Shown here: positions 4,287-26,036 of the stretch, one piece after another | Numbering within the stretch: position 1 is the first letter of the stretch | How the letters are laid out: every line of letters starts with the position of its first letter | From: Longimicrobium sp. | GTDB taxonomy: Bacteria; Gemmatimonadota; Gemmatimonadetes; Longimicrobiales; Longimicrobiaceae | Length of the DNA: 34,051 bases | Assembly (NCBI GenBank): GCA_035715345.1 | Contig: DASTLD010000480.1 | Coordinates: forward strand, 1-34,051 | Reading direction: 5' to 3' | Translations under genes and position numbers: made by a program | The notes under the pieces: generated by a model | Database searches by the model: none | What the model saw: only the letters and a program-made list of their open reading frames with translations | What the model was told of the DNA's origin: nothing

Positions 4287-4796
4287 ATGCCCAACAACAA
4301 CGTGTTTCGCGGGTCCGACGCCACGCTGGTGCTGGCGGTGGACGACAAGGAGAGCGAGGAGGGAAAGATCGCCGACACCCTGCTGGGCGAGTACGAGCTG
4401 TCCAGCGTGGTGGGCCGGCTGCAGCAGGTCAAGGTGATGGTCAACAACGAGCTGCGCCCCTACCACGAGCTGGGGCGGCGCTTCGCGACGGAGCTGCGGC
4501 CGGGGAACGTGGACGTGAGCGGCTTCGCGGAGCGGGCGCACGTCAACGGCGCGCTGCTGCGGCTGCTGCTGGGCGACGGCGCCACCAGCCCGCCGCCGCA
4601 GGGCGCGCTGGTGCAGCCCTCGTTCAACATGGTCATCAACCTGGGCAACCCCGCGCTGCCCGGCACCGGGACCAAGCTGGTCCTGTTCGGGGTGAAGTTC
4701 GACACCTGGAGCTTTTCCCTGCCCGAGGACGACTTCGTGATGGAGGCGGTGACCTTCAGGGCCCTGCGCGTGGCGAGCGAGGAGGTCGCCGCGTGA
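4287..4796 (+). CDS. Probable tail tube protein (169 aa)
   Basis: Lies directly after the sheath with typical tube size. Beta-rich pattern (VGRLQQVKV...YHELG...ELRPG.VDVSG; LFGVKFDTWSFSL...DFVMEAVTFRAL) matches myophage tube proteins. Confidence 0.8.
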   Translation: MPNNNVFRGSDATLVLAVDDKESEEGKIADTLLGEYELSSVVGRLQQVKVMVNNELRPYHELGRRFATELRPGNVDVSGFAERAHVNGALLRLLLGDGATSPPPQGALVQPSFNMVINLGNPALPGTGTKLVLFGVKFDTWSFSLPEDDFVMEAVTFRALRVASEEVAA

Positions 4797-7012: not shown

Positions 7013-7594
7013 ATGCCCATCCAGATCGGCGACGTGGAGCTGGCGCGGGTGCACCGCATCACCACCCTCGAGGAAGCGGCGTTCGTGCACCACAGCGTGC
7101 CCGGCGCCGAGGGCAACGTGCTCCAGAACCTGGGCCGCCGCTCCGTCCGGCTGCGCGTGGAGGGCATCTTCTACGGCGCCACCGCCGCGGCGGACCTGGC
7201 CAAGCTGCGCGCCGTCTACACCGCCCGCGAGCCGGTGGACTTCATCGCCGACGTGGTGGGCGACACCTACGTCAGCAAGGTGGCGGTGGACCGGCTGGAG
7301 GTGGCGGAGGTGGCCGGCGAGCCGGACCAGTTCTCCTTCGCGGTCATCCTGGCCGAGTTCGTGGAGCCCCCCGCCAGCGGCGCCGCCGCGGTGGAGGCGG
7401 TCAACGCCGCCGTGGCCGTGGACGCCGCCGCGCTGATGGAGCTGGCCACGCTGCCCGACGCGCTGGCCCTGGGCTCCCTGCCGGAGATCAGCAACCCGTT
7501 CGCGCCACTCAAGGACGCGCTCAACCCGCTGGCCGACGCCAGCGCCGGCGTCCAGCAGTCCATGGCCGGCCTCAAGATCCTGCTCGAAGTCTGA
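7013..7594 (+). CDS. Tube initiator / distal tail protein, Mu gpN (DNA circularisation N-terminal) or P2 gpU-like (193 aa)
   Basis: Motif HHSVPG.EGNVLQNLGRR.VRLRVEGIF.G...DL..LR........P..F, then ...FSFAVILAEF, characteristic of this tube-fold family. Confidence 0.75.
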   Translation: MPIQIGDVELARVHRITTLEEAAFVHHSVPGAEGNVLQNLGRRSVRLRVEGIFYGATAAADLAKLRAVYTAREPVDFIADVVGDTYVSKVAVDRLEVAEVAGEPDQFSFAVILAEFVEPPASGAAAVEAVNAAVAVDAAALMELATLPDALALGSLPEISNPFAPLKDALNPLADASAGVQQSMAGLKILLEV

Positions 7595-10600: not shown

Positions 10601-11259
10601 AGCTGGAGCTGGTGCGCGCGCGGCGGGGCGACTACGGCGCCGCGGTCATCGGCGCGCTGAACGGCGTGCTGCGCGACGCGGACTTCGCGGCGCGGCTGGG
10701 CACGGGGGCGCGCACGAAGGTGGACGCGGACGCGAAGGCGCTGGCGGAGACGCTCAAGACCGCGCAGGGCGACGCCTGGCTGGCCGCGCGCAAGGCGCAG
10801 ATCCGCAACTTCGCCCTCGCTCGCCAGCTCGACGCGGCGCAGAAGGCCTTCGCCGCGCCGGCCACGCGCAAGGCGGGGCTCATCCGCCTGAACCGCGTCA
10901 TCCTGGAGGTGCACTTCCCCGCCCACCTCAAGGCCGGGCTCCAGGGGCTGCATCCCTACGTCGTGGAGACGGTCGCGCACCTGTGGCCGGAGGAGACGGT
11001 GGCCCGGGTGGACAGGCTGTACGCGGACATCCTGAAGGACGTGAAGGCGCTGCCCGACCGGCTGATCCGCGCGCCGCTGGACGAGGCGTACGCCAAGGTC
11101 AAGGCCAAGCTGAAGGAGACCTTCGACATCCAGGGCATCTTCCGCGTGGTGGACCTCAAGATCGACGGCATCGAGGGCGACCTGTCCAAGGGGCTGGACC
11201 GGCTGAGCGTGGCGTACGAGCGGCTGCTGTCCACGCTGGACCAGCGCCTGGCGGCGTGA
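7624..11259 (+). CDS. 1211-aa alpha-helical repetitive protein (tape-measure-like or lumen/cargo candidate)
   Basis: Strong GC3 codon bias. Long amphipathic helical repeats (e.g. LDPQKLLDVVQGLYDQLTELVESLDP). Stop overlaps the hub start (TGATG). No enzyme motif recognised. Confidence 0.75.
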   Translation: MPESSIFSALPGTGDLSLGALPTSVPLPTLDTDLGGMKESLMGSLGGGIPAVEMPDLSGAPSVSGFRKSLEEPLSGLTSIDAGSLMESAKGALPIEMPKAGFDVNGVVSKITSQVLPPEASGSMDTDIGLPPTLGDFTGPLRRLAEAGAATPLRMLSMMLTILDRLVETATDADKLKQFTAEALGEILVAQVQNLRDALPLAALEQARAPFDAGFLDRYQALLAQLGRVQDAAGPELLATVQAVRAELVPAIRHAGAAAATLGRFRAGDTDEVTRAVQAVVGFSTSDAVFLQPMFDRVEATVGTVVDAIASPVQQLAAMIGQIKAYLEMAADKAEEAATAVSQKLSATLRTLAGHLETAQARITELEEKVRAFIDKVDVGPVIEKFKAGLVTVVDGVDSFFTQVESVRKQLDDAVAKLDADVRVKFDEGLRAVEGQIRGLLDQITGVLDRPEVKDVLDQARQGVEKLKKAIEEASLQQVFDLVISKTGALEGKIQAIDTSRLGTPQKTALKVGVKIIQEVKVDDIVKPELEAAFAQIMGPLRELIQLLKDKVLFVEKKIDEFAPGTLVAGTIEPYLKPVFDALEGFRPSQLLQPLKDALDYLTGLLEQLDPQKLLDVVQGLYDQLTELVESLDPAPLNGMIAGAANTATAQLGQVRDVYLDDIVRTIKETVSLQKLLEGTGIQEIADAEFWDLLRKWLGGAFLDVITTAVDDVEKRLGQEFGGLDYGTAAAAVADVAKAVDAQSRIGADGFLAKVTGFQGVLDGAAVRVQQLDSQRRALLDAGPARPEVEAALRELALQPVLDLAAALKATAAVTPDAATAAVEKVKTALTGQAAKLRAINEDAIRQAVPNLFRTQLGDPVRGFVARMKVKLQPFADAVTAIQDFLKTTLQELPARVDRVVGGVLDQLKVDLKTVLGEVIDTIDTLRDAITRTITRVYEQVKEQVEKVNPAWVLNSFVEADLAEGGIAAMATAIAAAGDQPSAALQTRLASDQLELVRARRGDYGAAVIGALNGVLRDADFAARLGTGARTKVDADAKALAETLKTAQGDAWLAARKAQIRNFALARQLDAAQKAFAAPATRKAGLIRLNRVILEVHFPAHLKAGLQGLHPYVVETVAHLWPEETVARVDRLYADILKDVKALPDRLIRAPLDEAYAKVKAKLKETFDIQGIFRVVDLKIDGIEGDLSKGLDRLSVAYERLLSTLDQRLAA

Positions 11260-12230
11260 TGCTGGTCGTCGGCTACAAGGTCACCGTGGGCGGCGCCGCG
11301 CTGGAGCCCGGCGACCAGGCACCCCTGCTGTCGCTGCTGTGCCAGGCCGCGCTGGACGTGCCCGCCAACCGCTGCCGCATCGCGGTGCACGGGGGATCGG
11401 ACCTGGCCGCCAAGCCGGGGGACGCGGTCAGCGTGGAGCTGGGCCACGGGGACGCGCTGGAGAAGGTGTTCACCGGCACGGTGGCCGGCGTGGCGCAGGG
11501 GTTCGCCGGCATCGAGGTGGAGGCGCTGGGCTCGTTCGCCGGGCTGGCGGCGGGGCGGCTGAACCTGCTGTACGAGAAGCAGACCGCGGGGGCCATCGTG
11601 AGCGACGTGCTGGGGCGGGTAGGGGCCACGGAGGGCAAGGTGGAGGCGGGGCCCAAGCTGCCCAGCTTCGCCCTGGACGACGGGCGCACGCTGTGGGCGC
11701 ACCTGCGGGCCCTGGCCACGCGCTGCGGCTTCGACCTGTACGCGGACGCGGACGACAAGGCGCAGTTCAAGGCCTACGCGGCGGCGGCGACGCACGCCTT
11801 CAGCTTCGGCGTGGACGTGCTGGCCTACGAGCACGGCGCCGCGCCGGCGGAGGTGGAGGGGGTGGAGGTGCTGGGCGAGAGCCCCGCCGGGCAGGGCCAG
11901 GGCGACGACGCCAGCGCCTGGCTGACCAAGAAGGACGTGAAGGGCACCGCCGGCAAGACCAGCGGCAGGGTGCTGCGCGTGGCGGACCGGGCCGCGCGCA
12001 ACCCCAACCTGGCGGGCGACTTCGCCAAGGGGCTGCTGGCGCCGCACCAGCCCACGGCGCGCGGCGGGGTCCGCCTGGTGGGCGCGCCGGCGGTCAAGCT
12101 GGGCGACGCGGTCAAGCTGGAGAAGCTGCCCGTGGCGGCGCACAACGGCGAGGGGCGGGTGACGGCGGTGCGGCACCGGCTGCACGCGCGGCTGGGGTTC
12201 GTGACGGACGTGGAGTGGGAGCGCGCGTGA
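11259..12230 (+). CDS. Baseplate hub protein, T4 gp27 / P2 gpD-like (323 aa)
   Basis: ATG at 11259 overlaps the upstream stop. Motifs GDAVSVELG..VFTGTV, YEKQTAGAIVSD, LWAHLRALATRCGFDLY, G.P.VKLGD...G.GRVTAVRH......GFVT. Confidence 0.88.
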   Translation: MLVVGYKVTVGGAALEPGDQAPLLSLLCQAALDVPANRCRIAVHGGSDLAAKPGDAVSVELGHGDALEKVFTGTVAGVAQGFAGIEVEALGSFAGLAAGRLNLLYEKQTAGAIVSDVLGRVGATEGKVEAGPKLPSFALDDGRTLWAHLRALATRCGFDLYADADDKAQFKAYAAAATHAFSFGVDVLAYEHGAAPAEVEGVEVLGESPAGQGQGDDASAWLTKKDVKGTAGKTSGRVLRVADRAARNPNLAGDFAKGLLAPHQPTARGGVRLVGAPAVKLGDAVKLEKLPVAAHNGEGRVTAVRHRLHARLGFVTDVEWERA

Positions 12231-12973
12231 TGGGCGATTCCGTCGTGGGGGTCATGCGGCGCGTGGCGGAGCACGAAGCCCGGCGCGTGCTGACCACGGA
12301 GCTGGGGGTGGTGACCGCCGTGTTTCCCCACGCGGACGAGGGGGACAAGGACAACTACCAGTGCTCCGTGCAGCTCCGCCACAAGGTGCTGCCGGACGGG
12401 CAGAAGCTGGAGCTGCGCCAGGTGCCCATCGCGGTGCCGTACATCGGGATGGCGGCCATCCCCAACGTGGGAGACCTGGTGCTGGTGCAGTTCGTGGGCG
12501 GCGACGTGAACCAGCCGGTGGTGACCGCGCGGCTCTACAACGACGAGGACCGGCCGCCGGCCAACCTCAAGGACGAGTTCCTGGTGATGCACAAGCCCAG
12601 GGAGGGGGGCAGCATCAAGATCGACAAGGATTCGAAGGTGGTCATCACCAGCAAGAGCAAGGAGAACGTGCTGACGGTGGACGACGAGGCCATCTCCTTC
12701 AAGAACGAGAAGTTCAGCCTGGTGATCGACTTCAAGGGCGAGAGCATCACCCTGACCAGCGACAAGGACCTGTCGCTGCTGGCCAGCAAGGGCAAGGTGC
12801 TGATCGATGCCAAGGAGCTGGAGATCAAGTCGGGGAGCACCATCAAGATCGGGGCGCCGAGCGGCAAGCTGAGCATCGAGGCGCAGGAGGCGGAGGTGAA
12901 GGCCAGCACGACCGCCAAGGTCGAGGCCAGCGCCGGCCTGACGCTCAAGGGCGCCACGATCGATCTGAACTGA
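12230..12973 (+). CDS. Central spike, gp5/gpV OB-fold plus beta-helix (247 aa)
   Basis: ELGVVTAV...IPNVGDLVLVQFVGGDVNQPVVTARLYN OB-fold signature. Lys/Ile/Ser beta-helical repeats. Ends KGATIDLN like VgrG C-termini. Confidence 0.92.
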   Translation: MGDSVVGVMRRVAEHEARRVLTTELGVVTAVFPHADEGDKDNYQCSVQLRHKVLPDGQKLELRQVPIAVPYIGMAAIPNVGDLVLVQFVGGDVNQPVVTARLYNDEDRPPANLKDEFLVMHKPREGGSIKIDKDSKVVITSKSKENVLTVDDEAISFKNEKFSLVIDFKGESITLTSDKDLSLLASKGKVLIDAKELEIKSGSTIKIGAPSGKLSIEAQEAEVKASTTAKVEASAGLTLKGATIDLN

Positions 12974-13519: not shown

Positions 13520-13951
13520 ATGGCCGACTCCATCCTGATGACCGGCGACATGGTGATGTTCATCCCCGCGTTCTCGCCGGCGGTGATCGTCCCGGTGCCG
13601 GGGACGCTGGCGGGGACGGGGCGCGCCGGCATCGGCAAGAAGCCGGTGTGCGTGGACGGCGACGAGAAGAACGTGGTCGTGCCGGGCGTGGTCTACATGA
13701 CGCCCAGCCACCCCATCCCCGGCGTGGGCATCCTGACCATCGCCGCGCTGGGCGGCGACCAGAAGGCGAAGAAGACGAAGTGCGGCGGCAAGGCGGTGCT
13801 GCTCAAGGGCAGCACCTTCGACGCGAAGCTCCAGGTGACCGCGCCGGCGCAGCAGCCCGCGCCGCCCGGGCCGCCCGTGCCCGACGCCAACGCGGAGTAC
13901 AAGGGGAAGGGCCAGTTCATCACCACCAACGTGCAGGTCAAGGGCACCTGA
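13520..13951 (+). CDS. Spike-tip protein, PAAR-like, Afp10/Pvc10 (eCIS) type (143 aa)
   Basis: Pattern GD.V.F.PAF..A...GTG.A.I..KPVCV.GDEK.V...Y.TP.HP.PG.G..TI..L...Q...P.PD....GKG.FIT matches Afp10/Pvc10-like tips. Located after the spike. Confidence 0.82.
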   Translation: MADSILMTGDMVMFIPAFSPAVIVPVPGTLAGTGRAGIGKKPVCVDGDEKNVVVPGVVYMTPSHPIPGVGILTIAALGGDQKAKKTKCGGKAVLLKGSTFDAKLQVTAPAQQPAPPGPPVPDANAEYKGKGQFITTNVQVKGT

Positions 13952-13983: not shown

Positions 13984-14427
13984 ATGCCGGACCCATTCCT
14001 GAGCGACCTGGCCCTGACCCGCCGCGCCACCAACGCGCTGACCAGCGACCGCGAGGCCGTGGACCTGCGCGCCGCGCGCGGCGACCTGCTGCGCGCATCC
14101 GGGCGCGACAACCTGGCGCAGGCCATCCTCAACCGCCTGTACACCCGCGTGGGCGCGCTGTCCGGCCTGGGCCACCCCGCCTACGGCAGCCGCCTGTACC
14201 TGCTGGCCGGCGAGCCGGACACGCGCCGCACCCGCGCCCTGGCGGAGTTCTACGTGCGCGAGGCGCTGGGCCGCGACCCGCGCGTCACCGCCGTGGACCA
14301 GGTGCTGTTCGAGACGTCGCCGCGCAACTCGCCGCTGCGCAACGCGCTGCGCATGCACGTGACCGTCGTGCCCGCGGGCGGCGAAGCGCCGCTTACGGTG
14401 ACCCTGACGCCCGCGCTGGGGGGCTGA
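13984..14427 (+). CDS. gp25/GPW-like baseplate protein, sheath initiator (147 aa)
   Basis: G.DNLAQAILNRL.T..G.L..LGHP.YGSRLY.L.GEP ... VREAL..DPRV..V signature. Confidence 0.92.
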   Translation: MPDPFLSDLALTRRATNALTSDREAVDLRAARGDLLRASGRDNLAQAILNRLYTRVGALSGLGHPAYGSRLYLLAGEPDTRRTRALAEFYVREALGRDPRVTAVDQVLFETSPRNSPLRNALRMHVTVVPAGGEAPLTVTLTPALGG

Positions 14428-14433
14428 CCGGCC

Positions 14434-17355
14434 ATGGCCTTCGAGAAGCGCCCCTTCCGCGACCTGTACGAGTCCATGGCGGCGGACCTGCGCCGCCGCA
14501 CCGCCGAGCTGACCGACTTCGAGGAGGGCAGCGTCGTCCGCTCGCTCTTCGAGAGCGTCTCGGTGGAGATGGCGCTGCTCTACGAGCAGATGGACCTGGT
14601 CTACCAGTCCGGCTTCGTGGACACCGCCACCGGGCCCAACCTGGACCGCGTGGTGGCCGTGCTGGGCATCACCCGCAACGAGCCGGACTTCGCCACCGGC
14701 GAGGTGACCTTCGAGCGCGACCCGGGCGCCACGCAGGAGATCACCATCCCCGTGGGCACGCTGGTGACCACGGAGGAGAACCCCGAGAAGAAGCCGGTCA
14801 AGAAGGCGTACCTGACCCGCGAGGAGGGCCGCCTGCGCGCGGGCGACACGGCGGTGGACGTCAAGGTGCAGGCGGAGGAGCGCGGCGCCGACCTGTTCAC
14901 CGAGAGCGAGACGGTGGTGGTCATGCCGCGGCCGGTGCCGGGCATCAAGACGGTGCACAACAAGCGGCCCATCCGCTTCCTGGGCCGCGGCCGCGAGACG
15001 GACGAGGAGCTGCGCGACCGCGCCAAGAAGGCGCTGCTCGCCTCCGGCCGCGCGAGCGCCACCGCCATCGAGAACGCGCTGCTGGCCCTGCCCTACGTCC
15101 GCGGGGTGCGCGTGCGCGAGAGCTTTCCCGCCACCACGCTGGGCGACCCCGCGCCGGACGCCCCGCCCGCCCGCGGCCGCGGCGAGGTGGACGTCTTCGT
15201 GGACGGCCTGCGCTCCGACAACTACGACCGCCTGCGCGACCGCGTGAACGAGGTGCGCGCCGCCGGCGTGTACGTGCGGCTGATGCCCGCCGTGGCCATC
15301 AACACGCAGGTCACGCTGCGCATCACGGCGGACCCGGCGGTCACGCGCGACCAGGTGCCCGTGCTCGAGCGCAACGTGCGCGACCGGGTGATCGACTTCA
15401 TGGACCGCCTGCGCATGGGCAACCCCCTGCTCTTCTCGCAGCTCACCCGCGAGGTGCTGAACGTCAAGGGCGTCACGGACCTGGCGGACTTCCGCGTGGT
15501 CACCTTCCGCGAGGGGCTGCAGGAGGCCACCGGCGCCGTCACGCTGACGCGTGCACGGGCGGTGGATGCGAACCTCCCCATCCCCCGCGGCACGCTGCTC
15601 ACCACCACGCGGCCGGACGCGGGGGGCGCCGAGCCGCTGCTGTTCGAGGTGGTGGGCCCCGTGCCCGCGGAGGGGCAGGCGCAGAAGGAGGAGGACGTGC
15701 TGCTGCCCGCGGGCCAGGCGCAGGCGCGCGTGACCGTCCGCGCCACGCGCACCGGGCGGGGTGGCGAGCTGCTGCGCACCGGCAGCGCCGCGCTCTGGGA
15801 GCCGGTGCGGCTGGGCGACACGGTGCTGGCCGTGGTCAACGACGCGCCGCTGCGCCTGCCGCGCGAGGTGTGGACGCCGGAGATGAAGCAGGTGCCGGCG
15901 CGGCTGGAGGAGCGCTTCTCCGCGGACCTGGTGCGCGCCGCGGCGGAGCCCAAGCCGCTGGACGTGCAGGTGCAGGTGGCGCTGGCCATCCCCACCGCCG
16001 CCGCGCAGGAGGCCGCGCTCAAGGCCGCCGCGGACGCGGTCGTGGACGCCGGCAAGGACGCGGAGGCGGGGCTCGCGGCCGCACTCAAGCCGCTGACGGA
16101 CGTGCTGGCGGCGGCCAGGAGCGGCGGCAATGCGCTGGGCCTGGCGCTGGACGAGCAGGCGCGGACGGACGTGGCGAAGGTGCTGGCGGCGTTCGGCCGC
16201 GCCCTGCGCCGGGCGGCGGAGCCCGCGTTGCGCGCCCGCATGGCGGACCCGCGCCCCGGCGCGGAGGGCGACGCCCTGCGCGACGCCGTCGTGACGGCGG
16301 TGCGCGCCTACTTCGCCTCGCTGCTCCCCGCCCCGCCCGCCGCGGACGGCGAGGACGGCGGCGCGGCGGAGAAGCCGGCGGCCGTGGCGGCGCGTCCCGT
16401 GATCGAGGTGGAGGTGCTGGCGCGGGTGGAGGCGGCCATCCGCGCCACCCTGGGCGCCGACGCGCCCGAGACCCGCATCGCGGCGGACCTGGGGGCGGCG
16501 CTGGGGCCGGCGGTGGCGGAGGCGGGCGCGGCAGCGCTGGCGGACTTTCCCGCCGCGGAGCTGGAGCGCGTGCTGCGCGACGCGGTGGACCGCGTGATCG
16601 CCGCGCGCATCCAGGCGGAGACGGACGCCGTGACGAAGGCTTCGCGGGAGCTGGCGGACGCCACCACGGCGCTGGGCAAGGCCGCCGGCGACCCCGCCGG
16701 CGACGCGTACAGGCAGGCCCAGGCCAGGGCCGACACCGCGCGGGCCAGCTTCGAGACCATCCGGCGCGACGCGGAGGACGTGCAGGGCGCCGCCGGGCGC
16801 GCCGCCGACGCCGCGTCCCGGGCGGTGCCCGCCGCGGTGGCCGCGCTGCGGGCAAAGGTGGAGGAGGCCATCGCCGCCGCGGCCAGGCCGGCCGCGCTGG
16901 CCGCGAAGGTCCTGCCGGCGCTGAAAGGGGGGGCGTTCGAGACCCGCGTGCGGCTGCGCGCGCTGACCTTCGACGGGGCACTGCTGAGCGACGCGCCCTG
17001 GCTGGAGCCCGGCTTCGTGGAGCAGGCCACGGCGCGCACCGTGTTCGTCTACACGCGCGAGCTGGAGCTGGCGGGCACCATCGCCCTCAGCCTGCCGCTG
17101 ACGGCGACGGACGCGGACAAGCGCGAGATCCGGAAGCAGGTGCGCCAGTCCGTGGCGGACTACGTGGACGGGCTGGAGCCGGAGGAGAACGTGGACCTGG
17201 CGCGCGTGGAGGAGCTGTCGCGCGGGCACGACCGGGTGCTGGGCGCGGCGTTCACCCCCGCGCCGGCGCTGGAGCCGCGCATCCGGGGCGGCGCGGTGGA
17301 CGTGGCGGCGTGGGAAAAGGCGGTGGTGCGCGACTCCCTGCTCATCCAGGGATAA
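14434..17355 (+). CDS. Baseplate J/gp47-like wedge protein, enlarged (973 aa)
   Basis: LTDFEEGSVVRSLFE, GFVDTATGPNLDRVV..LGITR....ATGEVTF, IPVGTLV, G...ETDEELR.R, RAAGV motifs. Carries an extra beta domain and an Ala-rich helical insert. Confidence 0.93.
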   Translation: MAFEKRPFRDLYESMAADLRRRTAELTDFEEGSVVRSLFESVSVEMALLYEQMDLVYQSGFVDTATGPNLDRVVAVLGITRNEPDFATGEVTFERDPGATQEITIPVGTLVTTEENPEKKPVKKAYLTREEGRLRAGDTAVDVKVQAEERGADLFTESETVVVMPRPVPGIKTVHNKRPIRFLGRGRETDEELRDRAKKALLASGRASATAIENALLALPYVRGVRVRESFPATTLGDPAPDAPPARGRGEVDVFVDGLRSDNYDRLRDRVNEVRAAGVYVRLMPAVAINTQVTLRITADPAVTRDQVPVLERNVRDRVIDFMDRLRMGNPLLFSQLTREVLNVKGVTDLADFRVVTFREGLQEATGAVTLTRARAVDANLPIPRGTLLTTTRPDAGGAEPLLFEVVGPVPAEGQAQKEEDVLLPAGQAQARVTVRATRTGRGGELLRTGSAALWEPVRLGDTVLAVVNDAPLRLPREVWTPEMKQVPARLEERFSADLVRAAAEPKPLDVQVQVALAIPTAAAQEAALKAAADAVVDAGKDAEAGLAAALKPLTDVLAAARSGGNALGLALDEQARTDVAKVLAAFGRALRRAAEPALRARMADPRPGAEGDALRDAVVTAVRAYFASLLPAPPAADGEDGGAAEKPAAVAARPVIEVEVLARVEAAIRATLGADAPETRIAADLGAALGPAVAEAGAAALADFPAAELERVLRDAVDRVIAARIQAETDAVTKASRELADATTALGKAAGDPAGDAYRQAQARADTARASFETIRRDAEDVQGAAGRAADAASRAVPAAVAALRAKVEEAIAAAARPAALAAKVLPALKGGAFETRVRLRALTFDGALLSDAPWLEPGFVEQATARTVFVYTRELELAGTIALSLPLTATDADKREIRKQVRQSVADYVDGLEPEENVDLARVEELSRGHDRVLGAAFTPAPALEPRIRGGAVDVAAWEKAVVRDSLLIQG

Positions 17356-17364
17356 GGCCCCGCC

Positions 17365-19524
17365 ATGGACGCGCTGACCGGCAAGGGACGCGGCATCCTG
17401 CTCCGCCTCCCCCACTTCTTCGACCCCGAACAGGCGGGGCCGCTGCTGCTGGACGTGGTGGACGCGTTCGGCCGCGGCCTGGAGCGCGCCGAGGGCGACC
17501 TGTACGAGGTGCTGCGGTCGCACCACGTGGAGACGGCGGAGAACGAGGCCGCCGGGGGATACACGGCGCCGCTGGAGAAGCGCGGCGACCTGGACAAGAT
17601 CCTGTCGCTGTACCTGGAGGTGCTGGGCGGCACCAGCCACCTGGTCAAGGTCAGCCCCGCCTTTACCCCCCGCTCCATCGACGCGCGGCGGCTGGCGGCG
17701 GCGCTGGCGGAGCCGGACTCGTCGCACCCGCTGCGGCCCTACCTGCGGCGCCGGTTCGCCAGGCGCACCTGGGAGCTGGTGCTGGCCTTCCGCGTGGAGC
17801 GCACGCGCATCACCGACGCCGAGGTGCGCGCCGGGCTGGTGATGGAGCTGCTGCTGGAGCGCTCGCCCGTCGCGTCGTACATCGTCCCCCGGCTGGCGGA
17901 GGAGACGCGCGCGCTGCTGGGCCGGCACCGCGGCGGGGCGGAGGTGGACCCGCGCCTGGCCGCCGCGCTGCGGCGCGACCTGAACGACCGCGTGCTGCCG
18001 GACCCCGGCCTGTACCGCGCGCTCTGGCCCTGGTGGGAGGAGCGCGCCCTGCCGGAGGCCGCGCGGGCGCTGCGGGCCGGCATCTTCGGCGCGTTCCTGC
18101 GCGGGCGGCTGGCGGCGCCCGACCCCACGGAGGCGGAGCGGGCGCTGCCGGACGCGCGGCGCGGGGCGCTGGCGGCGGACCTGGCGGGTGCGGACCCGGC
18201 CCCCGTGCCCGCCGGCGACGACCTGCGCCGGCTGAACCGCCTGCTGCTGGAGACGGCGTGGGCGTGGGACCCCGCCGCCCGACCCTGGGGGCTGCGCCCG
18301 CGCGGCATTCCGCTGCTGGCGCTGCCGCGCGGCGCCCCCGCCGCGGGACCCGTGCGCGCGGTGCGCGAGGCGCTGGTGGCGGAGCTCAACCGGCTGCTGG
18401 ACGACCCGGGGCTGGCCGCGCCGGAGCGCTTTCCCGAGCTGGCGGAGGAGCTGCCCGCGCTCCGACGCCGCTTCCGCGGGCAGACGGCCTGGCTCAACCG
18501 CGTGCTGCTGGAGGCGGCGTTCCCGCGCAGCATCGAGCGCAGCTACAAGCCGTACCGCGAGCGGCTGCTGGGGCTGATCCAGGTGCTGCGGCGCGGCGCC
18601 AGCACCCCGCGCGGCATCCTGGACATCGTGGCCGCCAACCTGGGCATCGTGGGCGACGGGCCGGAGGTGGAGGCGGCGCGCGCGCTGATCCAGGTGCAGG
18701 AGTTCGACCCGCGCCAGAAGGCCTTCTTCGAGGGGCAGGTGGGCTTCTGGGACGTGTTCGCCATCACCAGCGACAACCCCGGGGCCTCCGCCCCGCGGGT
18801 GCAGGTCACGGTGCTGGACCAGGACGGGATCGAGCTGGCCAACCTGCGCCTGCGCGACGAGCGCACGGACCACGCGGTGCTCTACCCCGGCCGCCTGCGC
18901 GCCGGCGACGAGCTGCTGCTGGAGGGCGGCGGCGTGCTGCTGAACGGCGTCGCGCCCCCCAAGGCGCTGCTGGGGACGGTGCCGGAGCTGCCGCGCGGCA
19001 CCAGCCGCTGGAAGCTGGACGCGGACGTGGTGGTCTTCGGCGCGGAGGCGGGCGCGGAGCGCGGGGTGCCGGTGGGCCGCTTCGACATGCCGGTGGGGGC
19101 CACCTTCGACGGCGCCGCGCTGGCGCCGGAGGGGCCGATCGCGAAGGTGGAGGTCTTCTCCTACCGCCACACGCCCGGCGTCTTCAAGGTCGTGATCCCG
19201 TGGAACATCCCCGGCTTCACGGACAAGTTCGACGCCGAGGACCACCCCCGGCAGCAGATCCTGCCGCTGGTCAACCGCGTCAAGGCGGCGGGCGTGCAGG
19301 CGCTGGTGGCCTACCGCGAGGTGTTCGCGGAGACGCACGACGTGGACGAGGCGCTGCGGCTGAAGGTGTCCGGCCGCCTGCTGGCGGAGGCGCACGACGC
19401 CGCGGACGACTACCGCTTCTTCAGCCGCCAGACCGCCGCGGAAGACCAGGGCCAGCAGGACGCGCTGGTCGTGAACGGCGTGTTCGACTACACCACCTTC
19501 GACAGCCTGAACACCTTTGCCTGA
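17365..19524 (+). CDS. Baseplate wedge partner, P2 gpI / Mu gp48-like with insertions (719 aa)
   Basis: Follows baseplate J. Motifs LP.FF, LRSHHVETA...DLDKI, YRERL...........TPRGI, VNRVKAAGV...Y.E, and C-terminal FDYTTFD. Confidence 0.72.
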   Translation: MDALTGKGRGILLRLPHFFDPEQAGPLLLDVVDAFGRGLERAEGDLYEVLRSHHVETAENEAAGGYTAPLEKRGDLDKILSLYLEVLGGTSHLVKVSPAFTPRSIDARRLAAALAEPDSSHPLRPYLRRRFARRTWELVLAFRVERTRITDAEVRAGLVMELLLERSPVASYIVPRLAEETRALLGRHRGGAEVDPRLAAALRRDLNDRVLPDPGLYRALWPWWEERALPEAARALRAGIFGAFLRGRLAAPDPTEAERALPDARRGALAADLAGADPAPVPAGDDLRRLNRLLLETAWAWDPAARPWGLRPRGIPLLALPRGAPAAGPVRAVREALVAELNRLLDDPGLAAPERFPELAEELPALRRRFRGQTAWLNRVLLEAAFPRSIERSYKPYRERLLGLIQVLRRGASTPRGILDIVAANLGIVGDGPEVEAARALIQVQEFDPRQKAFFEGQVGFWDVFAITSDNPGASAPRVQVTVLDQDGIELANLRLRDERTDHAVLYPGRLRAGDELLLEGGGVLLNGVAPPKALLGTVPELPRGTSRWKLDADVVVFGAEAGAERGVPVGRFDMPVGATFDGAALAPEGPIAKVEVFSYRHTPGVFKVVIPWNIPGFTDKFDAEDHPRQQILPLVNRVKAAGVQALVAYREVFAETHDVDEALRLKVSGRLLAEAHDAADDYRFFSRQTAAEDQGQQDALVVNGVFDYTTFDSLNTFA

Positions 19525-20022: not shown

Positions 20023-22260
20023 ATGGCATTCACGTACCTGGAAAAGACCCCCGGCGAGCTGATCCGCTCCGCCGACTGGAACGCGGTGGGGATGGAGGTG
20101 GCCCGCCTGGGCGGCGACAAGGTGGACCGCGCCGGCGGCGACACCATCAACGGCTCCCTGGGCGTCCGCGGCGACTTCACCGTGGGCGCGGCGAACAAGG
20201 GCGCCGGGCTGCGCATCTTCAAGAAGCAGGAGGACGGCACCGCGGCGGACCACGGCGCCGTGGTGCTGGGCACCGACGGCGACGCCAGCGCCCGCCTGCA
20301 CCTGGGCTACGCCGGTCCGTACTCGTGGATCCAGTCCCAGGGCAAGCCCACCCTGGCGCTCAACCCGCGCGGCGGCAGCGTGGGCGTGGGCACGGAGGCG
20401 CCGCAGGACCGGCTTCACGTGCACGGGGCGCTACGCATCCTCTCCGACTCCAACCCGGTGCGCTTCACCAGCGGCTGGAGCGGCTTTCCGGACGCGGCGC
20501 CCAACCAGGCGGAGATCGCCAACGACACGGGGACGTACAAGACGCTGATGCTGGTGGGCAACCGGTCCGCGGGCGGTCCGCGGCGCGTCTCCGTGTGGGA
20601 CCGGCTGGAGGTGAACGGCACCCTGGCCGTCACGGGCGATGCCGGCGTCGGCGGCGCTTTCTCCACCGCCGGCGCGGCCACGGTGGGCGGGCGGCTGACG
20701 GCGGGCGGCGGCGCGGCGGTCACCGGCCCGCTGTCCGCCACCGGCGACGCCAGCCTGGGGGCCAACGCCACCGTCGGGGGCGCGCTCTCCTTCGGCGAGC
20801 GCGGCGGGCAGCACGTGAACCTGTGGCGCACCGGCTACGGCATCGGCATCCAGGGCTCCACGCAGTACTACCGCAGCGACGCGCACTTCGCCTGGTTCCG
20901 CGGCGGCGCGCACCACAACGACACCTTCAACCCCGGCCCCAACGGCGCCGCGCTGATGGTGCTGCGCGCGGACGGCGCGCTGGGCGTGGGCACCGCCACG
21001 CCGGCGGCGCGGCTGCACGTGGCCGGCGGCGCCATCCGCGTGGACGCCGGCCAGGAGCTGATGTTCGCGGACAACGGCCAGATCCGCAGCGCGGACGACA
21101 ACCACCGCATCCTCTTCCGCCGCTCGGAGAACAAGCTGGAGCTGCGCGAGCACGGCGACATCGTCTTCTCGCCGGGCGCCACCGCCGGGGCGGAGACGGC
21201 GCGGATGGTGGTGAACGCCGCCGGCAGCGTGGGGATCGGCACCGCGGCACCGCAGGACCGGCTGGACGTGGCCGGCCGGGTGCGCATCGGCAGCAACGCC
21301 AGCCCCATCCAGATCGGCGGCGACGGCCACACCGGGTTCGTGAACGGGAACGCGCGCCAGGCGGAGATCAGCAACGACGTCGACGGCTACAAGACGCTGA
21401 TGATCCTGGGCAACTCGTCCGCGGGGATGGGCCGGCGCGTGTCCGTCTGGGACCGGCTGGAGGTCAACGGCATGCTGGTCGCCAACGGCGCGCAGGTCAA
21501 CGGCACGGTGGAGTCGCTGGCGGACACCGTGATGGGGAACGGCGTGGGCAAGCGCTTCATCCTCCACACGCGCACCAACGGGGGCGGCGACTTCCTGCAG
21601 CTGACCACCGACGACGGCGCGGGCAACTGGCAGTGGCACCAGGGCCTCACCTTCCGCCGGGCCACCGGCAACGTGGGCATCTCCAACGTCGACCCGCAGG
21701 ACCGGCTGCACGTCAACGGCACCGTGCGCATCCTGGGCGACACCAACCCCCTCCGCTTCACCAGCACCTGGAGCGGCTTCCCGGACCCGGTCAAGCACCA
21801 GGCGGAGATCTGCAACGACACCACCGGGCACAAGACGCTGATGCTCGTGGGCAACCAGTCCGCGGGGATGGGCCGGCGCGTCTCCGTCTGGGACCGCTTC
21901 GAGGTGAACGGCACCTTCGTGAACAACTCCGACGCCCGCTTCAAGCGCAACTTCCGCAAGCTCACCGGCGCGCTGGGCTCCGTGCTGCGGCTGGAGGGGC
22001 TGCGCTACGACCTGCGGCCGGAGGACGGCGGCCCGTCGGCGGAGCACCAGAAGGACCACATCGGCTTCGTCGCGCAGCAGGTGCGCGAGGTGTGCCCGGA
22101 GCTGGTGAGCCACGACCCCGCGCAGGACCGCTACTACCTGAACTACCTGGGCATCGTCCCGCTGCTGGTGGAGGCGGTCAAGGAGCTGCGCACCGGCATG
22201 GAGGCGGAGCTGGCGGCGGCGCGCGCGCGCATCGCCGCGCTGGAGGGCGGCGCCGCATGA
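20023..22260 (+). CDS. Tail fibre 1 with C-terminal intramolecular chaperone (Peptidase S74) (745 aa)
   Basis: Repeated GxVGIGT..P..RLHV.G fibre joints. Three copies of the AEI.ND....KTLM..GN.S....RRVSVWDR.EVNG module. SDARFKRN...IGFVAQQV.EV.PELV...LNY.GI.PLLVEAVKEL chaperone from 21928. Confidence 0.92.
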   Translation: MAFTYLEKTPGELIRSADWNAVGMEVARLGGDKVDRAGGDTINGSLGVRGDFTVGAANKGAGLRIFKKQEDGTAADHGAVVLGTDGDASARLHLGYAGPYSWIQSQGKPTLALNPRGGSVGVGTEAPQDRLHVHGALRILSDSNPVRFTSGWSGFPDAAPNQAEIANDTGTYKTLMLVGNRSAGGPRRVSVWDRLEVNGTLAVTGDAGVGGAFSTAGAATVGGRLTAGGGAAVTGPLSATGDASLGANATVGGALSFGERGGQHVNLWRTGYGIGIQGSTQYYRSDAHFAWFRGGAHHNDTFNPGPNGAALMVLRADGALGVGTATPAARLHVAGGAIRVDAGQELMFADNGQIRSADDNHRILFRRSENKLELREHGDIVFSPGATAGAETARMVVNAAGSVGIGTAAPQDRLDVAGRVRIGSNASPIQIGGDGHTGFVNGNARQAEISNDVDGYKTLMILGNSSAGMGRRVSVWDRLEVNGMLVANGAQVNGTVESLADTVMGNGVGKRFILHTRTNGGGDFLQLTTDDGAGNWQWHQGLTFRRATGNVGISNVDPQDRLHVNGTVRILGDTNPLRFTSTWSGFPDPVKHQAEICNDTTGHKTLMLVGNQSAGMGRRVSVWDRFEVNGTFVNNSDARFKRNFRKLTGALGSVLRLEGLRYDLRPEDGGPSAEHQKDHIGFVAQQVREVCPELVSHDPAQDRYYLNYLGIVPLLVEAVKELRTGMEAELAAARARIAALEGGAA
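20779..20964 (+). repeat. 186-bp direct repeat, copy 1 (fibre 1)
   Basis: Identical to 24969-25154 except one base (20870 A vs 25060 T). Confidence 0.92.
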
Positions 22261-22297: not shown

Positions 22298-22543
22298 ATG
22301 AAAGACAAGCTGCAGGCGCGCGTGGACGCGCTCCGTTCCGAGTTCGAGCAGGGCGAGAAGATGATGGAGGAGCTGCGCGGCCGGCAGGCGGAGCTGCGCG
22401 ACACGCTGCTGCGCATCAGCGGCGCCATCCAGGTGCTGGAAGAGGAGCTGCGCGCGCTGGACGACGACGGGCTGGGGAACGCGGGGGATGCGGACGCCCC
22501 CGCGCCGGACCTGCCCCGCCCCGAGACGCTGGCCGCGGACTGA
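22298..22543 (+). CDS. Small coiled-coil protein (81 aa)
   Basis: MKDKLQARVDALRSEFEQG...LRDTLLRISGAIQVLEE heptad pattern. I recall similar small proteins beside fibres in eCIS-like loci (unverified). Confidence 0.75.
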   Translation: MKDKLQARVDALRSEFEQGEKMMEELRGRQAELRDTLLRISGAIQVLEEELRALDDDGLGNAGDADAPAPDLPRPETLAAD

Positions 22544-22550
22544 GCGGGCC

Positions 22551-23612
22551 ATGATCCAGCCGCTGATCGACGCGGCCGCCGCCGCCCTGCGCGAGCAGCT
22601 CGGCGCGGTGCTGCCGGAGCCGGAGCGGCGCGTGGCCGTGGGGCCCGCGCCGGAGCCGGACGCCGGCGGGCTGCCGCTGCTGGTGCTCTCGCCGGGGCGC
22701 TTCGAGGTGCGCGCGCCCGGCCGCGAGCCCGGCGCCGGCGAGCCCCGCCCGCGCCCGGTGGCCGAGCGGCTGGCGTGGGACCCCGCCGTTGCCGCGCCGC
22801 TGCCCCTGGCGCACGCGCCGCTGGAGGGCAGCGCGCGCGGGCGCCTGGTGCTGGCCGAGGGCACGGTGGCGGAGACGTCCGAGCTGCTGCTGGAGGGCCA
22901 CGACTTCACCGTGGACCCCGCCGCGCCGTCCGTCGCCTTCCTCCCACCCGCGAAGGCGAAGGCGGACGCGTACGCGGAGCGGCTGGCGGTGCAGGTGCAG
23001 GCGCGCGTGGGCCGCGCCTTCAGCCTGGACAGCCCGGCGGACCTCTCCGCCGCGCTCTTCGGCGACCTGAAGCTGCCGCCGCAGGGGGAGAAGACGGCGT
23101 CGGGCTACTGGTCCACCGCGGCGCCGGTGCTGGACGCGCTGGCGCCGCTGCACCCCGTCGTCCCGCTGGTGCAGGCGTACCGCGCCTTGAAGCGCGGCGC
23201 GCCGCTGCCGGTGGTGCTGGAGTACGCCTTCGCGGGGGTGTTCGCGGTGCGCGAGTTCCAGCAGGCGCTGCTGCTGGACGTGTACGACGCGGACGCGGGC
23301 GGGGTGGAGCGCTGGTCGTCGCTGGCGGCCGGCGTGCTGCTGGCCTACCAGGACGACCTGCTGGCCGCCGCCCGCCGCGACTACGCGTCGCGCAGGTCCG
23401 TCTCCACCGCGCACCACCTGACGCGGCTGGAGCTGGCGGAGGGCACGCCCGACGCCTTCGAGGCCGGCGCGCACGCACGGCTGGCCTTTCGCGTGGGCGG
23501 ACAGCTCGTGCTGGCCCGCGAGGAGCCCGCCAGCCTGGCCACCATCCGCCACGTGCGCGGGCCCGGCACCTTTTCCGACGCGCCCGTGGACGTGCCCGCC
23601 GGCCTGGGCTAG
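22551..23612 (+). CDS. Putative tail terminator/cap-like protein carrying an inserted family-A DNA polymerase thumb subdomain (353 aa)
   Basis: ATG lies 7 bp after the upstream stop. Terminator-like framework (N-terminal helix, GP..P....LP.L.L; ...REFQQ.L.LDVY..D....E..SSL...VL). Internal segment 22974-23192 is PolA-thumb-like. The terminator role is inference. Confidence 0.6.
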   Translation: MIQPLIDAAAAALREQLGAVLPEPERRVAVGPAPEPDAGGLPLLVLSPGRFEVRAPGREPGAGEPRPRPVAERLAWDPAVAAPLPLAHAPLEGSARGRLVLAEGTVAETSELLLEGHDFTVDPAAPSVAFLPPAKAKADAYAERLAVQVQARVGRAFSLDSPADLSAALFGDLKLPPQGEKTASGYWSTAAPVLDALAPLHPVVPLVQAYRALKRGAPLPVVLEYAFAGVFAVREFQQALLLDVYDADAGGVERWSSLAAGVLLAYQDDLLAAARRDYASRRSVSTAHHLTRLELAEGTPDAFEAGAHARLAFRVGGQLVLAREEPASLATIRHVRGPGTFSDAPVDVPAGLG

Positions 23613-23694: not shown

Positions 23695-23858
23695 ACCCTC
23701 GCCATCACCCCGGCCATGACCCTTTCCCCGCGCGCCCGCGGACCGCCCGCCGCGCCCGCGAGCTATCCGTACGACCGCATCCGCGGGGGACCCGCGGCGC
23801 GGACTTCCGCGCGCCGGCGTCCCCCCGCTTCGTTTCCGCATCACACAGGGTGACAGAG

Positions 23859-26036
23859 ATGCCATTCACGCACATCGACAAGGGCCCCGGCGACCTGATC
23901 CGCTCCGCCGACTGGAACGCCATGGGGCAGGAGATCCAGCGCCTGGCCACGGACAAGCTGGACCGCGCGGGCGGCGACGCCGTCGCCGGGCCGCTGGCCG
24001 TGCGCGGGGACCTGAGCGTGGGCCTGGCCAACAAGGGCGCCGGCCTGCGCGTGTTCAAGAAGCAGGAGGACGGCACCGCGGCGGACCACGGTGCCGTCGT
24101 CCTGGGCACCGACGGCGACGCCAGTGCCCGCCTGCACCTGGGCTACGCCGGCCCATACTCGTGGATCCAGTCGCAGGGCAAGCCCACACTGGCGCTGAAC
24201 CCGCGCGGCGGCAGCGTGGGCGTGGGCACGGAGGCGCCGCAGGACCGGCTGCACGTGCACGGCGCCCTGCGCATCCTGTCGGACTCCAACCCGGTCCGCT
24301 TCACCAGCGGGTGGAGCGGCTTCCCCGACCAGGCGCCCAACCAGGCGGAGATCGCCAACGATACGGGCAGCTACAAGACGCTGATGCTGGTGGGCAACAA
24401 GTCCGCGGGCGGCCCGCGGCGCGTGTCCGTGTGGGACCGGCTGGAGGTGAACGGCACGCTCGCGGTCACGAGCGACACGGCGCTCGGCGGCTCGCTCTTC
24501 GTGGGGGGCGCCGCGGCCGTGGGCGGCGCCCCCACCGCCGGCGACGTGGTCATGGGCGCCGCGCCCGGCAGGCGGTTCCTGCTGCACACGCGGTCGGGGC
24601 AGTACGGCGCCGACTTCTTCCAGGTGACCACCGACGCGGCGGACGGCGCCTGGCAGTGGGGCCAGGGCATCACGCTGCGCCGGGCGACCGGAAACGTGGG
24701 CATCGCCGTCACGGACCCGCAGGACCGGCTGCACGTGAACGGCTCCGCGCGTCTCCTGGGCGACGCCAACCCCCTGCGCATCACCGGGGGCTGGAGCAAC
24801 TTCGCGGACGGGAACAGCGCCCGGGCGGAGATCAGCAACGACACCGGCACCTACAAGGCGCTGATGATCGTGGGCAACGCCTCCGCCGGGCAGGGCCGGC
24901 GGGTGGGCGTGTGGGACCGGCTGGAGGTGAACGGCACCCTGGCCACCACGGGCGACGCGGCCGTGGGCGGCGCGCTCTCCTTCGGCGAGCGCGGCGGGCA
25001 GCACGTGAACCTGTGGCGCACCGGCTACGGCATCGGCATCCAGGGCTCCACGCAGTACTTCCGCAGCGACGCGCACTTCGCCTGGTTCCGCGGCGGCGCG
25101 CACCACAACGACACCTTCAACCCCGGCCCCAACGGCGCCGCGCTGATGGTGCTGAACACCGCCGGCAGCCTGGGCATCGGCACCACCGCGCCGCGCGCCC
25201 GGCTGGAGGTGGCCGGCGCCATCATGCCCGCCGCCGGCAACGCGGAGACCGCGGGCATCATGTTCCCGAAGGATCCCGGCGGCGGCGGAGGCGACAGCGC
25301 CTGGATGCGCTACTACGCGCGCGCGGGCGAGAGCTGCACGCTGGAGCTGGGCATCGCCAACGACGGCGACGACCACATCGCGCTCATGCCGGCCGGCGGC
25401 GTGGGCATCGGCGTCAACGCCCCCGCGGACCGGCTGCACGTGCACGGAGGCGTGCGCATCCTGACCGACACCAACCCCATCCGCTTCACCAGCGGGTGGT
25501 CGGGCTTCCCGGACCCGGTGCAGAACCAGGCGGAGATCAGCAACGACACGAGCGCCTTCAAGACGCTGATGATCGTGGGCAACAAGTCCGGCGACGGGTC
25601 CACGCGCCGGGTGTCCGTCTGGGACAAGCTGGAGGTGAACGGCAAGCTCAAGTCGCAGAACGCGCGGGTGCAGCGCGTGGCCAGCAACAAGATCGACAAG
25701 GGGGTCAGCGACTGGACGGACATGCCCGACATGCAGGCCGACCTGCCGGTGCACGCCGGCGCGGCGCTGCTGCTGTTCAAGGCGGGGGGCGTGCAGCTGA
25801 CCGGGGCCGGCAACGGCCAGATCCACTTCCGCATGCTGGTGGACGGCAGCCAAGTGGCGTTCTGCCTGCACGAGTTCCACAACAACGGCTGGCAGCTCCG
25901 CGACGTCTCGCTGGTGTGGATGGGCGACCTGGCCGCCGGCACGCGCCGGGTCTCCGTGCAGTGGAAGGTGCAGGCCGGCGTCGGCTCGTGCTGCTGGTAC
26001 GGCGACAACCGCTCCCTGATCGCCCTCGAGCTCTGA
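23859..26036 (+). CDS. Tail fibre 2 with a different C-terminal beta-sandwich head and no S74 chaperone (725 aa)
   Basis: Same N-terminal anchor as fibre 1 (K.PG.LIRSADWNA) and the same repeat modules in a different order. C-terminus WTDMPDM...FRMLVDG...LAAGT..VSVQW...RSLIALEL suggests a jelly-roll (BclA/C1q-like) head. Confidence 0.9.
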   Translation: MPFTHIDKGPGDLIRSADWNAMGQEIQRLATDKLDRAGGDAVAGPLAVRGDLSVGLANKGAGLRVFKKQEDGTAADHGAVVLGTDGDASARLHLGYAGPYSWIQSQGKPTLALNPRGGSVGVGTEAPQDRLHVHGALRILSDSNPVRFTSGWSGFPDQAPNQAEIANDTGSYKTLMLVGNKSAGGPRRVSVWDRLEVNGTLAVTSDTALGGSLFVGGAAAVGGAPTAGDVVMGAAPGRRFLLHTRSGQYGADFFQVTTDAADGAWQWGQGITLRRATGNVGIAVTDPQDRLHVNGSARLLGDANPLRITGGWSNFADGNSARAEISNDTGTYKALMIVGNASAGQGRRVGVWDRLEVNGTLATTGDAAVGGALSFGERGGQHVNLWRTGYGIGIQGSTQYFRSDAHFAWFRGGAHHNDTFNPGPNGAALMVLNTAGSLGIGTTAPRARLEVAGAIMPAAGNAETAGIMFPKDPGGGGGDSAWMRYYARAGESCTLELGIANDGDDHIALMPAGGVGIGVNAPADRLHVHGGVRILTDTNPIRFTSGWSGFPDPVQNQAEISNDTSAFKTLMIVGNKSGDGSTRRVSVWDKLEVNGKLKSQNARVQRVASNKIDKGVSDWTDMPDMQADLPVHAGAALLLFKAGGVQLTGAGNGQIHFRMLVDGSQVAFCLHEFHNNGWQLRDVSLVWMGDLAAGTRRVSVQWKVQAGVGSCCWYGDNRSLIALEL
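24969..25154 (+). repeat. 186-bp direct repeat, copy 2 (fibre 2)
   Basis: Identical to 20779-20964 except one base; offset 4190 bp. Confidence 0.92.

What the first reader, a model, noticed from the sequence alone, without database searches (positions are those of the whole stretch)
22974..23192. DNA polymerase I thumb subdomain grafted into a contractile-tail structural protein
Seen: AERLAVQVQARVGRAFSLDSPADLSAALFGDLKLPPQGEKTASGYWSTAAPVLDALAPLHPVVPLVQAYRALK. Established: this follows the family-A polymerase thumb pattern G..FNL.S..QL..VLF..L.LP...KT..G..ST...VL..L...HP.V..I..YR.L (cf. Taq GHPFNLNSRDQLERVLFDELGLP…KT..TGKRSTSAAVLEALREAHPIVEKILQYREL), the part that grips duplex DNA. No palm/fingers catalytic motifs (e.g. 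DYSQIELR) are present. The ~73-aa segment sits cleanly in frame between beta-strands (DFTVD…VAF and VVLEY) of a terminator/cap-like protein. Inference: a non-catalytic, possibly DNA-binding module displayed on the tail end. It could tether particles to nucleoid or extracellular DNA, sense DNA, or handle nucleic-acid cargo in a headless tail. Several basic residues are lost, so it may instead be a repurposed protein-interaction domain or a lineage-specific capture. I know of no described CIS component like this.
Basis: partly seen in the sequence, partly recalled or inferred. Interest (0 to 1): 0.88.

Follow-up and report, generated by a model that had tools for sequence, protein, structure and literature searches.

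The report
Polymerase thumb grafted onto syringe cap
An 81-residue piece of DNA polymerase I (its DNA-gripping thumb, with no catalytic parts) sits in frame inside the predicted cap protein of a headless phage-tail injection system of a soil bacterium and is conserved in about 30 relatives, where it likely acts as an outward-facing grip that may tether the particle to DNA.

Summary
Residues ~136-215 of the 353-aa gene at 22551-23612 are a family-A polymerase thumb (Pfam 40.7 bits; predicted fold 1.6 Å from KlenTaq), with no palm or fingers. The host protein has a predicted tail-terminator fold (lambda gpU Z 14-16) plus an outer beta-sandwich like the phage 812 terminator, and lies in a sheath-to-fibre gene cluster with no head genes. 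The insert is not a one-off. 31 homologue clusters carry it (down to 32% identity; one shared site in the 16 aligned against insert-less forms), while 60 of 60 aligned ~275-aa homologues lack it. It is as conserved as the core, has pN/pS below 1 in close pairs, and is only 34% identical to the host's own PolA. By analogy it faces outward, so handling cargo inside the tube is unlikely. Phosphate-contact residues are half kept (Ser513/Thr514/Arg536 equivalents) and half lost (Lys508, often Lys540). Best reading: an old domain capture, likely an avid DNA/polyanion tether on the cap (about 40%); a protein-docking or decoration role is nearly as likely. Binding, assembly and expression are untested. 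No description was found in four literature searches. New variant of a known kind.

The parts
22551..23612 (+). Tail terminator/cap gene with PolA-thumb insert (353 aa, P0003)
22551..22742 (+). N-terminal half of the terminator core (aa 1-64)
   Evidence: model; VIA-align to lambda gpU and others; coordinates
22743..22943 (+). Beta-sandwich domain, first part (aa 65-131); outer domain by analogy with the phage 812 terminator
22959..23201 (+). Inserted PolA thumb (end of helix H, H1-loop-H2, start of helix I; aa ~137-217); helix names recalled
23205..23237 (+). Last strand of the beta-sandwich (aa 219-229), closing the domain around the insert
23238..23522 (+). C-terminal half of the terminator core (aa 230-324)
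23523..23609 (+). C-terminal arm (low pLDDT alone, conserved IxSPG); inferred sheath-binding strand
   Evidence: analogy PMC12886913
2816..4237 (+). Contractile sheath; first gene of the cluster
   Evidence: Pfam, PHROGs, start
4287..4796 (+). Tail tube-like protein (PF18906, below cut-off)
7013..7594 (+). Baseplate hub / tube-initiator-like protein
7624..11259 (+). Tape-measure-like long protein
   Evidence: PHROGs
11339..12973 (+). VgrG-like spike (match in C-terminal part; true start not determined)
13520..13951 (+). CIS spike tip (PF19267, 167 bits)
13984..19524 (+). Baseplate wedge genes (gp25-like 13984-14427; wedge 14434-17355; unassigned 17365-19524)
20023..22260 (+). Tail fibre 1 with Peptidase_S74 chaperone
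22298..22543 (+). Small coiled-coil gene, directly upstream of the terminator in the window and in 6 of 7 distinct related loci
23850..26036 (+). Tail fibre 2; last gene of the cluster

Best explanation
The gene encodes the predicted cap (tail terminator) of a headless contractile injection system, into which the thumb of a DNA polymerase I was inserted in frame, and the thumb likely serves as an outward-facing, low-specificity grip for DNA or a similar phosphate polymer. Shown: thumb homology, absence of catalytic parts, one insertion site, conservation, gene context. Predicted: terminator core plus beta-sandwich fold, with the thumb folded and hanging from the loop before the last sandwich strand. 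Inferred by analogy with phage 812: a hexameric ring on the end opposite the spike, sandwich domains clamping the sheath from outside, so six thumbs would ring the outside of the cap. Inferred and untested: each thumb binds backbone phosphates weakly through the kept Ser-Thr helix cap and Arg, six together bind avidly, and the particle is thereby held by its rear end on DNA released at lysis, on matrix DNA or on the producer's chromosome, with spike and fibres free. Layered odds: real old capture 0.97; protein is the cap of this system 0.85; thumb binds DNA or a polyanion usefully about 0.45 given that.
For: Thumb match. Terminator fold: gpU Z 14.0, rmsd 2.2 Å, 120 aligned; insert-less homologue gpU Z 15.7 and phage 812 terminator as best Foldseek hit, E 4.6e-7; another insert-less homologue matches PF23932 phage-terminator clusters. 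No other cluster protein scanned matched a terminator family (the others were not folded). The 4 of 71 family genomes with this protein are the 4 with the 67-100% identical sheath subtype. Mean pairwise identity across 28 insert-bearing proteins: thumb 0.60, sandwich 0.56, core 0.53; pN/pS 0.29 in the closest pair; GC3 1.0. Of the 12 Taq thumb residues listed within 5 Å of primer phosphates (PMC10009445 Table 2), the window protein keeps 4 and has 2 conservative changes (gap-free mapping). In 30 inserts: Ser513 equivalent 28, Thr514 28, Arg536 27, Ser486 28, and a new Arg at Ala516 in 20.
Against: Lys508 equivalent kept in 4 of 30 and Lys/Arg at 540 in 6 of 30; Asn485 became Asp in 22 and Gln489 Glu in 20. 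Ser513/Thr514 also cap a helix, so their retention may be structural (inference). P0018 and P0027 lost the Ser-Thr pair and the Arg. The insert ends near Taq 540, so the rest of helix I is missing. The window's thumb has net charge only +2. 60 homologues do without it. Phage 812 similarity is modest (TM 0.40) and the model's pTM is 0.57, so domain orientation is uncertain. Most of the 30 inserts are close kin, so the counts overstate independence.
Confidence: 0.4

Rival explanations
1. The thumb was kept as a folded protein-interaction or decoration module on the cap. It would dock the neighbouring coiled-coil protein or a fibre, bridge caps into arrays, or stiffen the sheath clamp, and no longer binds DNA.
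For: The best-kept positions are mostly hydrophobic core and turn residues, while the Lys-rich loop is remodelled and two acidic changes appear. The gene lies between fibre genes and behind a conserved coiled-coil gene. The carrier beta-sandwich resembles N-terminal attachment domains of tailspikes and fibres (CBA120 TSP4 Z 8.6, rmsd 1.6 Å, 65 aligned). The phage 812 terminator carries separate decoration proteins (PMC12886913, passages).
Against: Polar Arg536, Ser486, Ser513 and Thr514 equivalents stay at 27-28 of 30. No partner is identified.
Confidence: 0.33
2. The thumb is a tolerated passenger: a chance insertion into a surface loop that must stay folded so as not to disturb the cap, but does nothing.
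For: Insert-less homologues are the majority (60 against 7 among 50% representatives). A mixture-model tree forces at least two changes, compatible with loss. P0049 has about 15 extra residues at the site, possibly a remnant.
Against: The insert is at least as conserved as the core, also among 9 divergent members (0.45 against 0.40), and persists in proteins only 32-44% identical. Length is nearly constant (shortened by a few residues in P0028 and P0039).
Confidence: 0.15
3. The protein caps a DNA-carrying or head-bearing particle (a defective prophage tail or gene-transfer device) and the thumb holds DNA at the neck or inside the tube.
For: Closest architecture is a true phage terminator. The cluster has a tape-measure-like gene and lacks Pvc16_N.
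Against: No capsid, portal or terminase match in the scanned window ORFs. The cluster begins at the sheath in four genomes and is followed by RecQ or other host genes. PF03237 not found in the 82%-complete genome. No relatives in IMG/VR or GenBank phages. The carrier domain is outside the channel in phage 812.
Confidence: 0.07
4. The fusion is an assembly chimera or a recent accident of this genome.
For: The genome is a fragmented assembly of 656 contigs.
Against: 31 independent protein clusters from several sources carry the fusion; the genome's own polA is elsewhere and only 34% identical over the thumb.
Confidence: 0.01

Closest known systems
Staphylococcus phage 812 tail terminator gp99 (PDB 8QKH, 8Q01; PMC12886913)
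   Same: Terminator core interrupted by a beta-sandwich; about 275 aa like the insert-less homologues; best Foldseek hit, 213 residues aligned.
   Different: About 10% identity, TM 0.40; belongs to a headed phage; no thumb insert.
Lambda gpU and related single-domain terminators; PVC, Anabaena, Algoriphagus and Streptomyces CIS caps; pyocin R2 collar
   Same: Core fold: Z 14-16 for gpU, 12.2 for the R2 collar, 8.5-10.7 for the CIS caps.
   Different: The window protein does not match Pvc16_N/PF14065; none of the listed structures aligned over the thumb.
Family A DNA polymerase thumb (Taq 469-538)
   Same: Sequence and predicted fold; Ser513, Thr514 and Arg536 equivalents kept.
   Different: No exonuclease, palm or fingers; helix I cut near residue 540; Lys-rich loop remodelled. 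NCBI nonetheless names two homologues 'DNA polymerase'.
Exapted enzymes in virus proteins: poxvirus F12 (bioRxiv 10.1101/2022.11.22.517515, passages) and TTV1 nucleocapsid from Cas4 (PMC4625639, search listing only)
   Same: A nucleic-acid enzyme reused without catalysis in a virus-derived machine.
   Different: F12 is a whole inactivated family-B polymerase used in egress. Here only one subdomain of a family-A enzyme is nested in another structural protein of a bacterial machine.

Membership tests
Family A DNA polymerase | Thumb subdomain homology | tested here: met
Family A DNA polymerase | Palm and fingers with catalytic motifs | tested here: not met
   Match covers Pfam positions 9-86 of 381; 44 bits against cut-off 720
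Tail terminator (gpU / phage 812 gp99 type) | Terminator core fold | tested here: met
   Predicted models, Z 14.0-15.7 to gpU
Tail terminator (gpU / phage 812 gp99 type) | Outer beta-sandwich in the same place as in gp99 | tested here: inconclusive
   Both domains aligned but rmsd 6-9 Å, TM 0.40
Tail terminator (gpU / phage 812 gp99 type) | Forms a hexamer that binds tube and sheath | not tested
Headless contractile injection system | Sheath, tube, baseplate, spike and fibre genes in one cluster | tested here: met
   (tube match below cut-off)
Headless contractile injection system | No capsid, portal or terminase genes in the locus | tested here: met
   both ends of the cluster lie inside the contig
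Afp/PVC-type eCIS | Pvc16_N (DUF4255) cap domain in the locus (marker per PMC8213781, passage) | tested here: not met
   No match in P0003 or neighbours; the genome's two matches lie on other contigs
Afp/PVC-type eCIS | AAA ATPase (Pvc15-like) in the locus | tested here: not met
   None among the 29 sequences scanned against Pfam
DNA-binding protein | Binds DNA | not testable with these tools
   Only residue conservation could be examined, with mixed result

The most novel reading that the evidence does not exclude
A class of bacterial injection particles anchors by its cap to DNA through six captured polymerase thumbs, so that matrix or lysis-released DNA becomes the scaffold that positions armed syringes; the PolA thumb is then an autonomous, transplantable DNA clamp.
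Probability: 0.3. Interest if true: 0.85.

Novelty: new variant of a known kind. Interest (0 to 1): 0.66.

Why it matters
The thumb is normally seen only as part of the polymerase hand. Its survival as a folded module inside a tail terminator shows that it can be transplanted and kept under selection. It gives a clean natural pair, with and without the insert at one site, for a direct test. If it binds DNA, it would be a new way for contractile particles to be positioned and a small portable DNA-binding unit. The host family is itself an unnamed two-domain cap of a non-Afp/PVC contractile system. Databases mislabel the fusion as 'DNA polymerase'.

Tried and rejected
Donor of the thumb: unresolved. 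All 15 inserts grouped together but with support 16, apart from the host family's PolA clade; an AU test could not reject inserts plus host-family PolA as one clade (p 0.55); 78 columns are too few. Single origin from the host part: a tree with 16 inserts held together had a higher likelihood under LG+G4 (p-AU 0.55), but a quick mixture-model tree placed P0039 among insert-less proteins with support 97; the careful search did not finish. Expression: no RNA holder listed, which says nothing either way. Class-wide search: 1 of 301 genomes, the own one. No relatives in IMG/VR, GenBank phages or plasmids; gene context of insert-less and of the distant insert-bearing proteins was therefore not seen. 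The insert-less family has no meaningful Pfam, PHROGs or PDB sequence match (best: 2 of 59 members weakly). The cap-like gene of a second system in this genome (C453) does not match the family. The Atlas search with P0003 returned only PolA clusters. No promoter or terminator-like site near the gene; no junction repeat seen by eye. No earlier findings of the scan. Literature searches that found no description of the fusion: (one search likewise); subscription papers and supplements were not searched or read.

Full report
Observation. The 73 residues at 22974-23192 are as written and lie in frame in a 353-aa ORF, 22551-23612. They match Pfam DNA_pol_A above its cut-off (40.7 bits, E 1.9e-10) over the first quarter of the profile only, align gap-free to Taq polymerase 469-538, and in an AlphaFold model built on 24 homologues fold with pLDDT 89-94 and superpose on KlenTaq at 1.6 Å over 83 columns. 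There is no palm or fingers. This is far beyond chance.

Host protein. The rest of the model matches tail terminators: lambda gpU Z 14.0 (rmsd 2.2 Å, 120 aligned), T5 p142 13.1, pyocin R2 collar 12.2, PVC cap 9.1, T4 gp15 8.3. A model of an insert-less homologue (pLDDT 92, pTM 0.81) gives gpU Z 15.7 and the phage 812 terminator as best Foldseek hit (E 4.6e-7, TM 0.40). A second insert-less homologue matches PF23932 phage-terminator clusters in the Atlas. The layout is nested: terminator core (aa 1-64, 230-324), a beta-sandwich inside it (65-131, 219-229), and the thumb inside the loop before the sandwich's last strand. In phage 812 the core lines the channel and the beta-sandwich is an outer domain that clamps the sheath (PMC12886913, passages read). 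By analogy the thumb faces outward at the end opposite the spike, in six copies. This is inference; the whole-protein pTM is 0.57.

Locus. Window 2816-26036 encodes sheath, tube, hub, tape-measure-like protein, VgrG-like spike, CIS spike tip, wedges, two fibres and this gene. No capsid, portal, terminase, Pvc16_N or AAA ATPase match was found in the ORFs scanned (29 sequences; 19). The cluster starts at the sheath here and in G332, G333 and G353 and is followed by RecQ or other host genes. PF03237 was not found in the 82%-complete genome. The order fibre, coiled-coil, terminator recurs in 6 of 7 distinct related loci; the seventh begins inside the gene. Named close homologues are Longimicrobium sp.. 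So this is a headless contractile system that is not of the Afp/PVC marker type.

Distribution. All 24 hits of the first search carry the thumb (7999 candidates scored). The exhaustive search gave 319 hits, of which the best 150 were seen: 7 host-plus-thumb, 82 host-only, 61 thumb-only. The thumb-only rows read as PolA or PolA fragments by eye. All 60 host-only proteins of 245 aa or more lack the thumb at the site where the 16 aligned carriers have it; 22 shorter host-only rows were left out. Two more carriers came, giving 31 clusters, down to 32% identity. Named insert-less members come from Acidobacteria and Saprospiraceae, with one short-contig fragment labelled Bradyrhizobium; distant carriers have no names. 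Full-length matches occur in 4 of 71 genomes of the family (one of the 71, G318, is unpublished and counts only in the denominator) and 1 of 301 of the class. The same four genomes hold the close sheath subtype (67-100%), while 11 others hold only a 45-58% sheath paralogue and no such terminator.

Age and selection. The thumb is 34% identical to the genome's own PolA thumb and has GC3 1.0, like its flanks. Mean identity among 28 carriers is 0.60 for the thumb, 0.56 for the sandwich and 0.53 for the core. pN/pS in the thumb is 0.29 for the closest pair and about 0.4-0.7 for other close pairs; distant pairs approach 1 in all regions, as synonymous change is limited by extreme GC3. One capture is the simplest reading: one site, shared derived residues, and a constrained host tree that is not rejected. 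Against it, a mixture-model tree needs at least two changes, so later loss or recombination is likely. The donor is unresolved.

Does it still bind DNA? Taq thumb residues within 5 Å of primer phosphates were taken from PMC10009445 Table 2 (passages); PMC12795823 (passages) names Arg536 as a phosphate ligand; PMC2441791 (passages) cites a study whose title reports reduced DNA binding when part of the Klenow thumb is deleted. Of the 12 listed positions in range, the window protein keeps Ser513, Thr514, Ala516 and Arg536 and has Ser for Thr509 and Arg for Lys540 (mapping; the 506-508 loop is ambiguous by one residue). Across 30 carriers: Ser513 28, Thr514 28, Arg536 27, new Arg at 516 in 20, but Lys508 4, Lys/Arg540 6, Asp at 485 in 22, Glu at 489 in 20. 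Lysines fall from 6.4 to 2.5 per thumb, not only through GC bias (5.0 in the 32 locus-derived PolAs), while net charge is about the same (five loci repeating sequences already counted, L002, L005, L006, L007, L035, were dropped). The picture is a kept phosphate pocket with an eroded periphery, suited to weak but six-fold binding, and also compatible with a purely structural role. Most carriers are close kin.

Mechanism and rivals. I commit to an outward polyanion grip on the cap (0.40), with protein docking or decoration (0.33), passenger (0.15), DNA-carrying particle (0.07) and artefact (0.01) as rivals.

Novelty. Four searches aimed at the fusion found no description; PMC8213781 and PMC10598620 (passages) contain no mention of polymerase. 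Subscription papers and supplements were not seen. Precedent for reuse of polymerases exists (poxvirus F12), but for a whole inactivated enzyme. Verdict: a real, conserved, previously undescribed architecture within a known kind of machine; interest 0.66.

Noticed in passing
window 9-2449: 3' end of an RHS-type gene followed by a DUF2247 gene, a likely toxin-immunity pair directly upstream of the sheath; not at this position in three related loci.
   Followed up: partly
G000 contigs C453, C104, C24 and C187, C603, C562, C98: The genome holds parts of at least two more contractile systems: a paralogue of this type with a different 260-aa gene before the sheath, and a Pvc16_N-bearing type.
   Followed up: partly
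window 22298-22543: Small coiled-coil gene of no known family, conserved just upstream of the terminator; candidate plug, adaptor or chaperone.
   Followed up: partly
window 26156-28474; L003 4944-7589; L037 11140-13644: RecQ follows the cluster in three loci, suggesting a stable chromosomal site.
   Followed up: no
L046 3265-8258; L073 3605-11562: Tandem large (750-900 aa) related genes run divergently upstream of the sheath in two genomes; the two tested have no Pfam match.
   Followed up: partly
P0049: Insert-less-length homologue with about 15 extra residues at the insertion site, possibly a remnant of a deleted thumb.
   Followed up: partly
P0085: A eukaryotic family-A polymerase record with two thumb segments in tandem; may be a gene-model artefact.
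   Followed up: no
L009 601-1755 (-): Second polA-like gene in G311, of a different lineage from the family's PolA, at a contig end.
   Followed up: partly
P0004, P0021: NCBI names these cap proteins 'DNA polymerase' because of the thumb match.
   Followed up: yes
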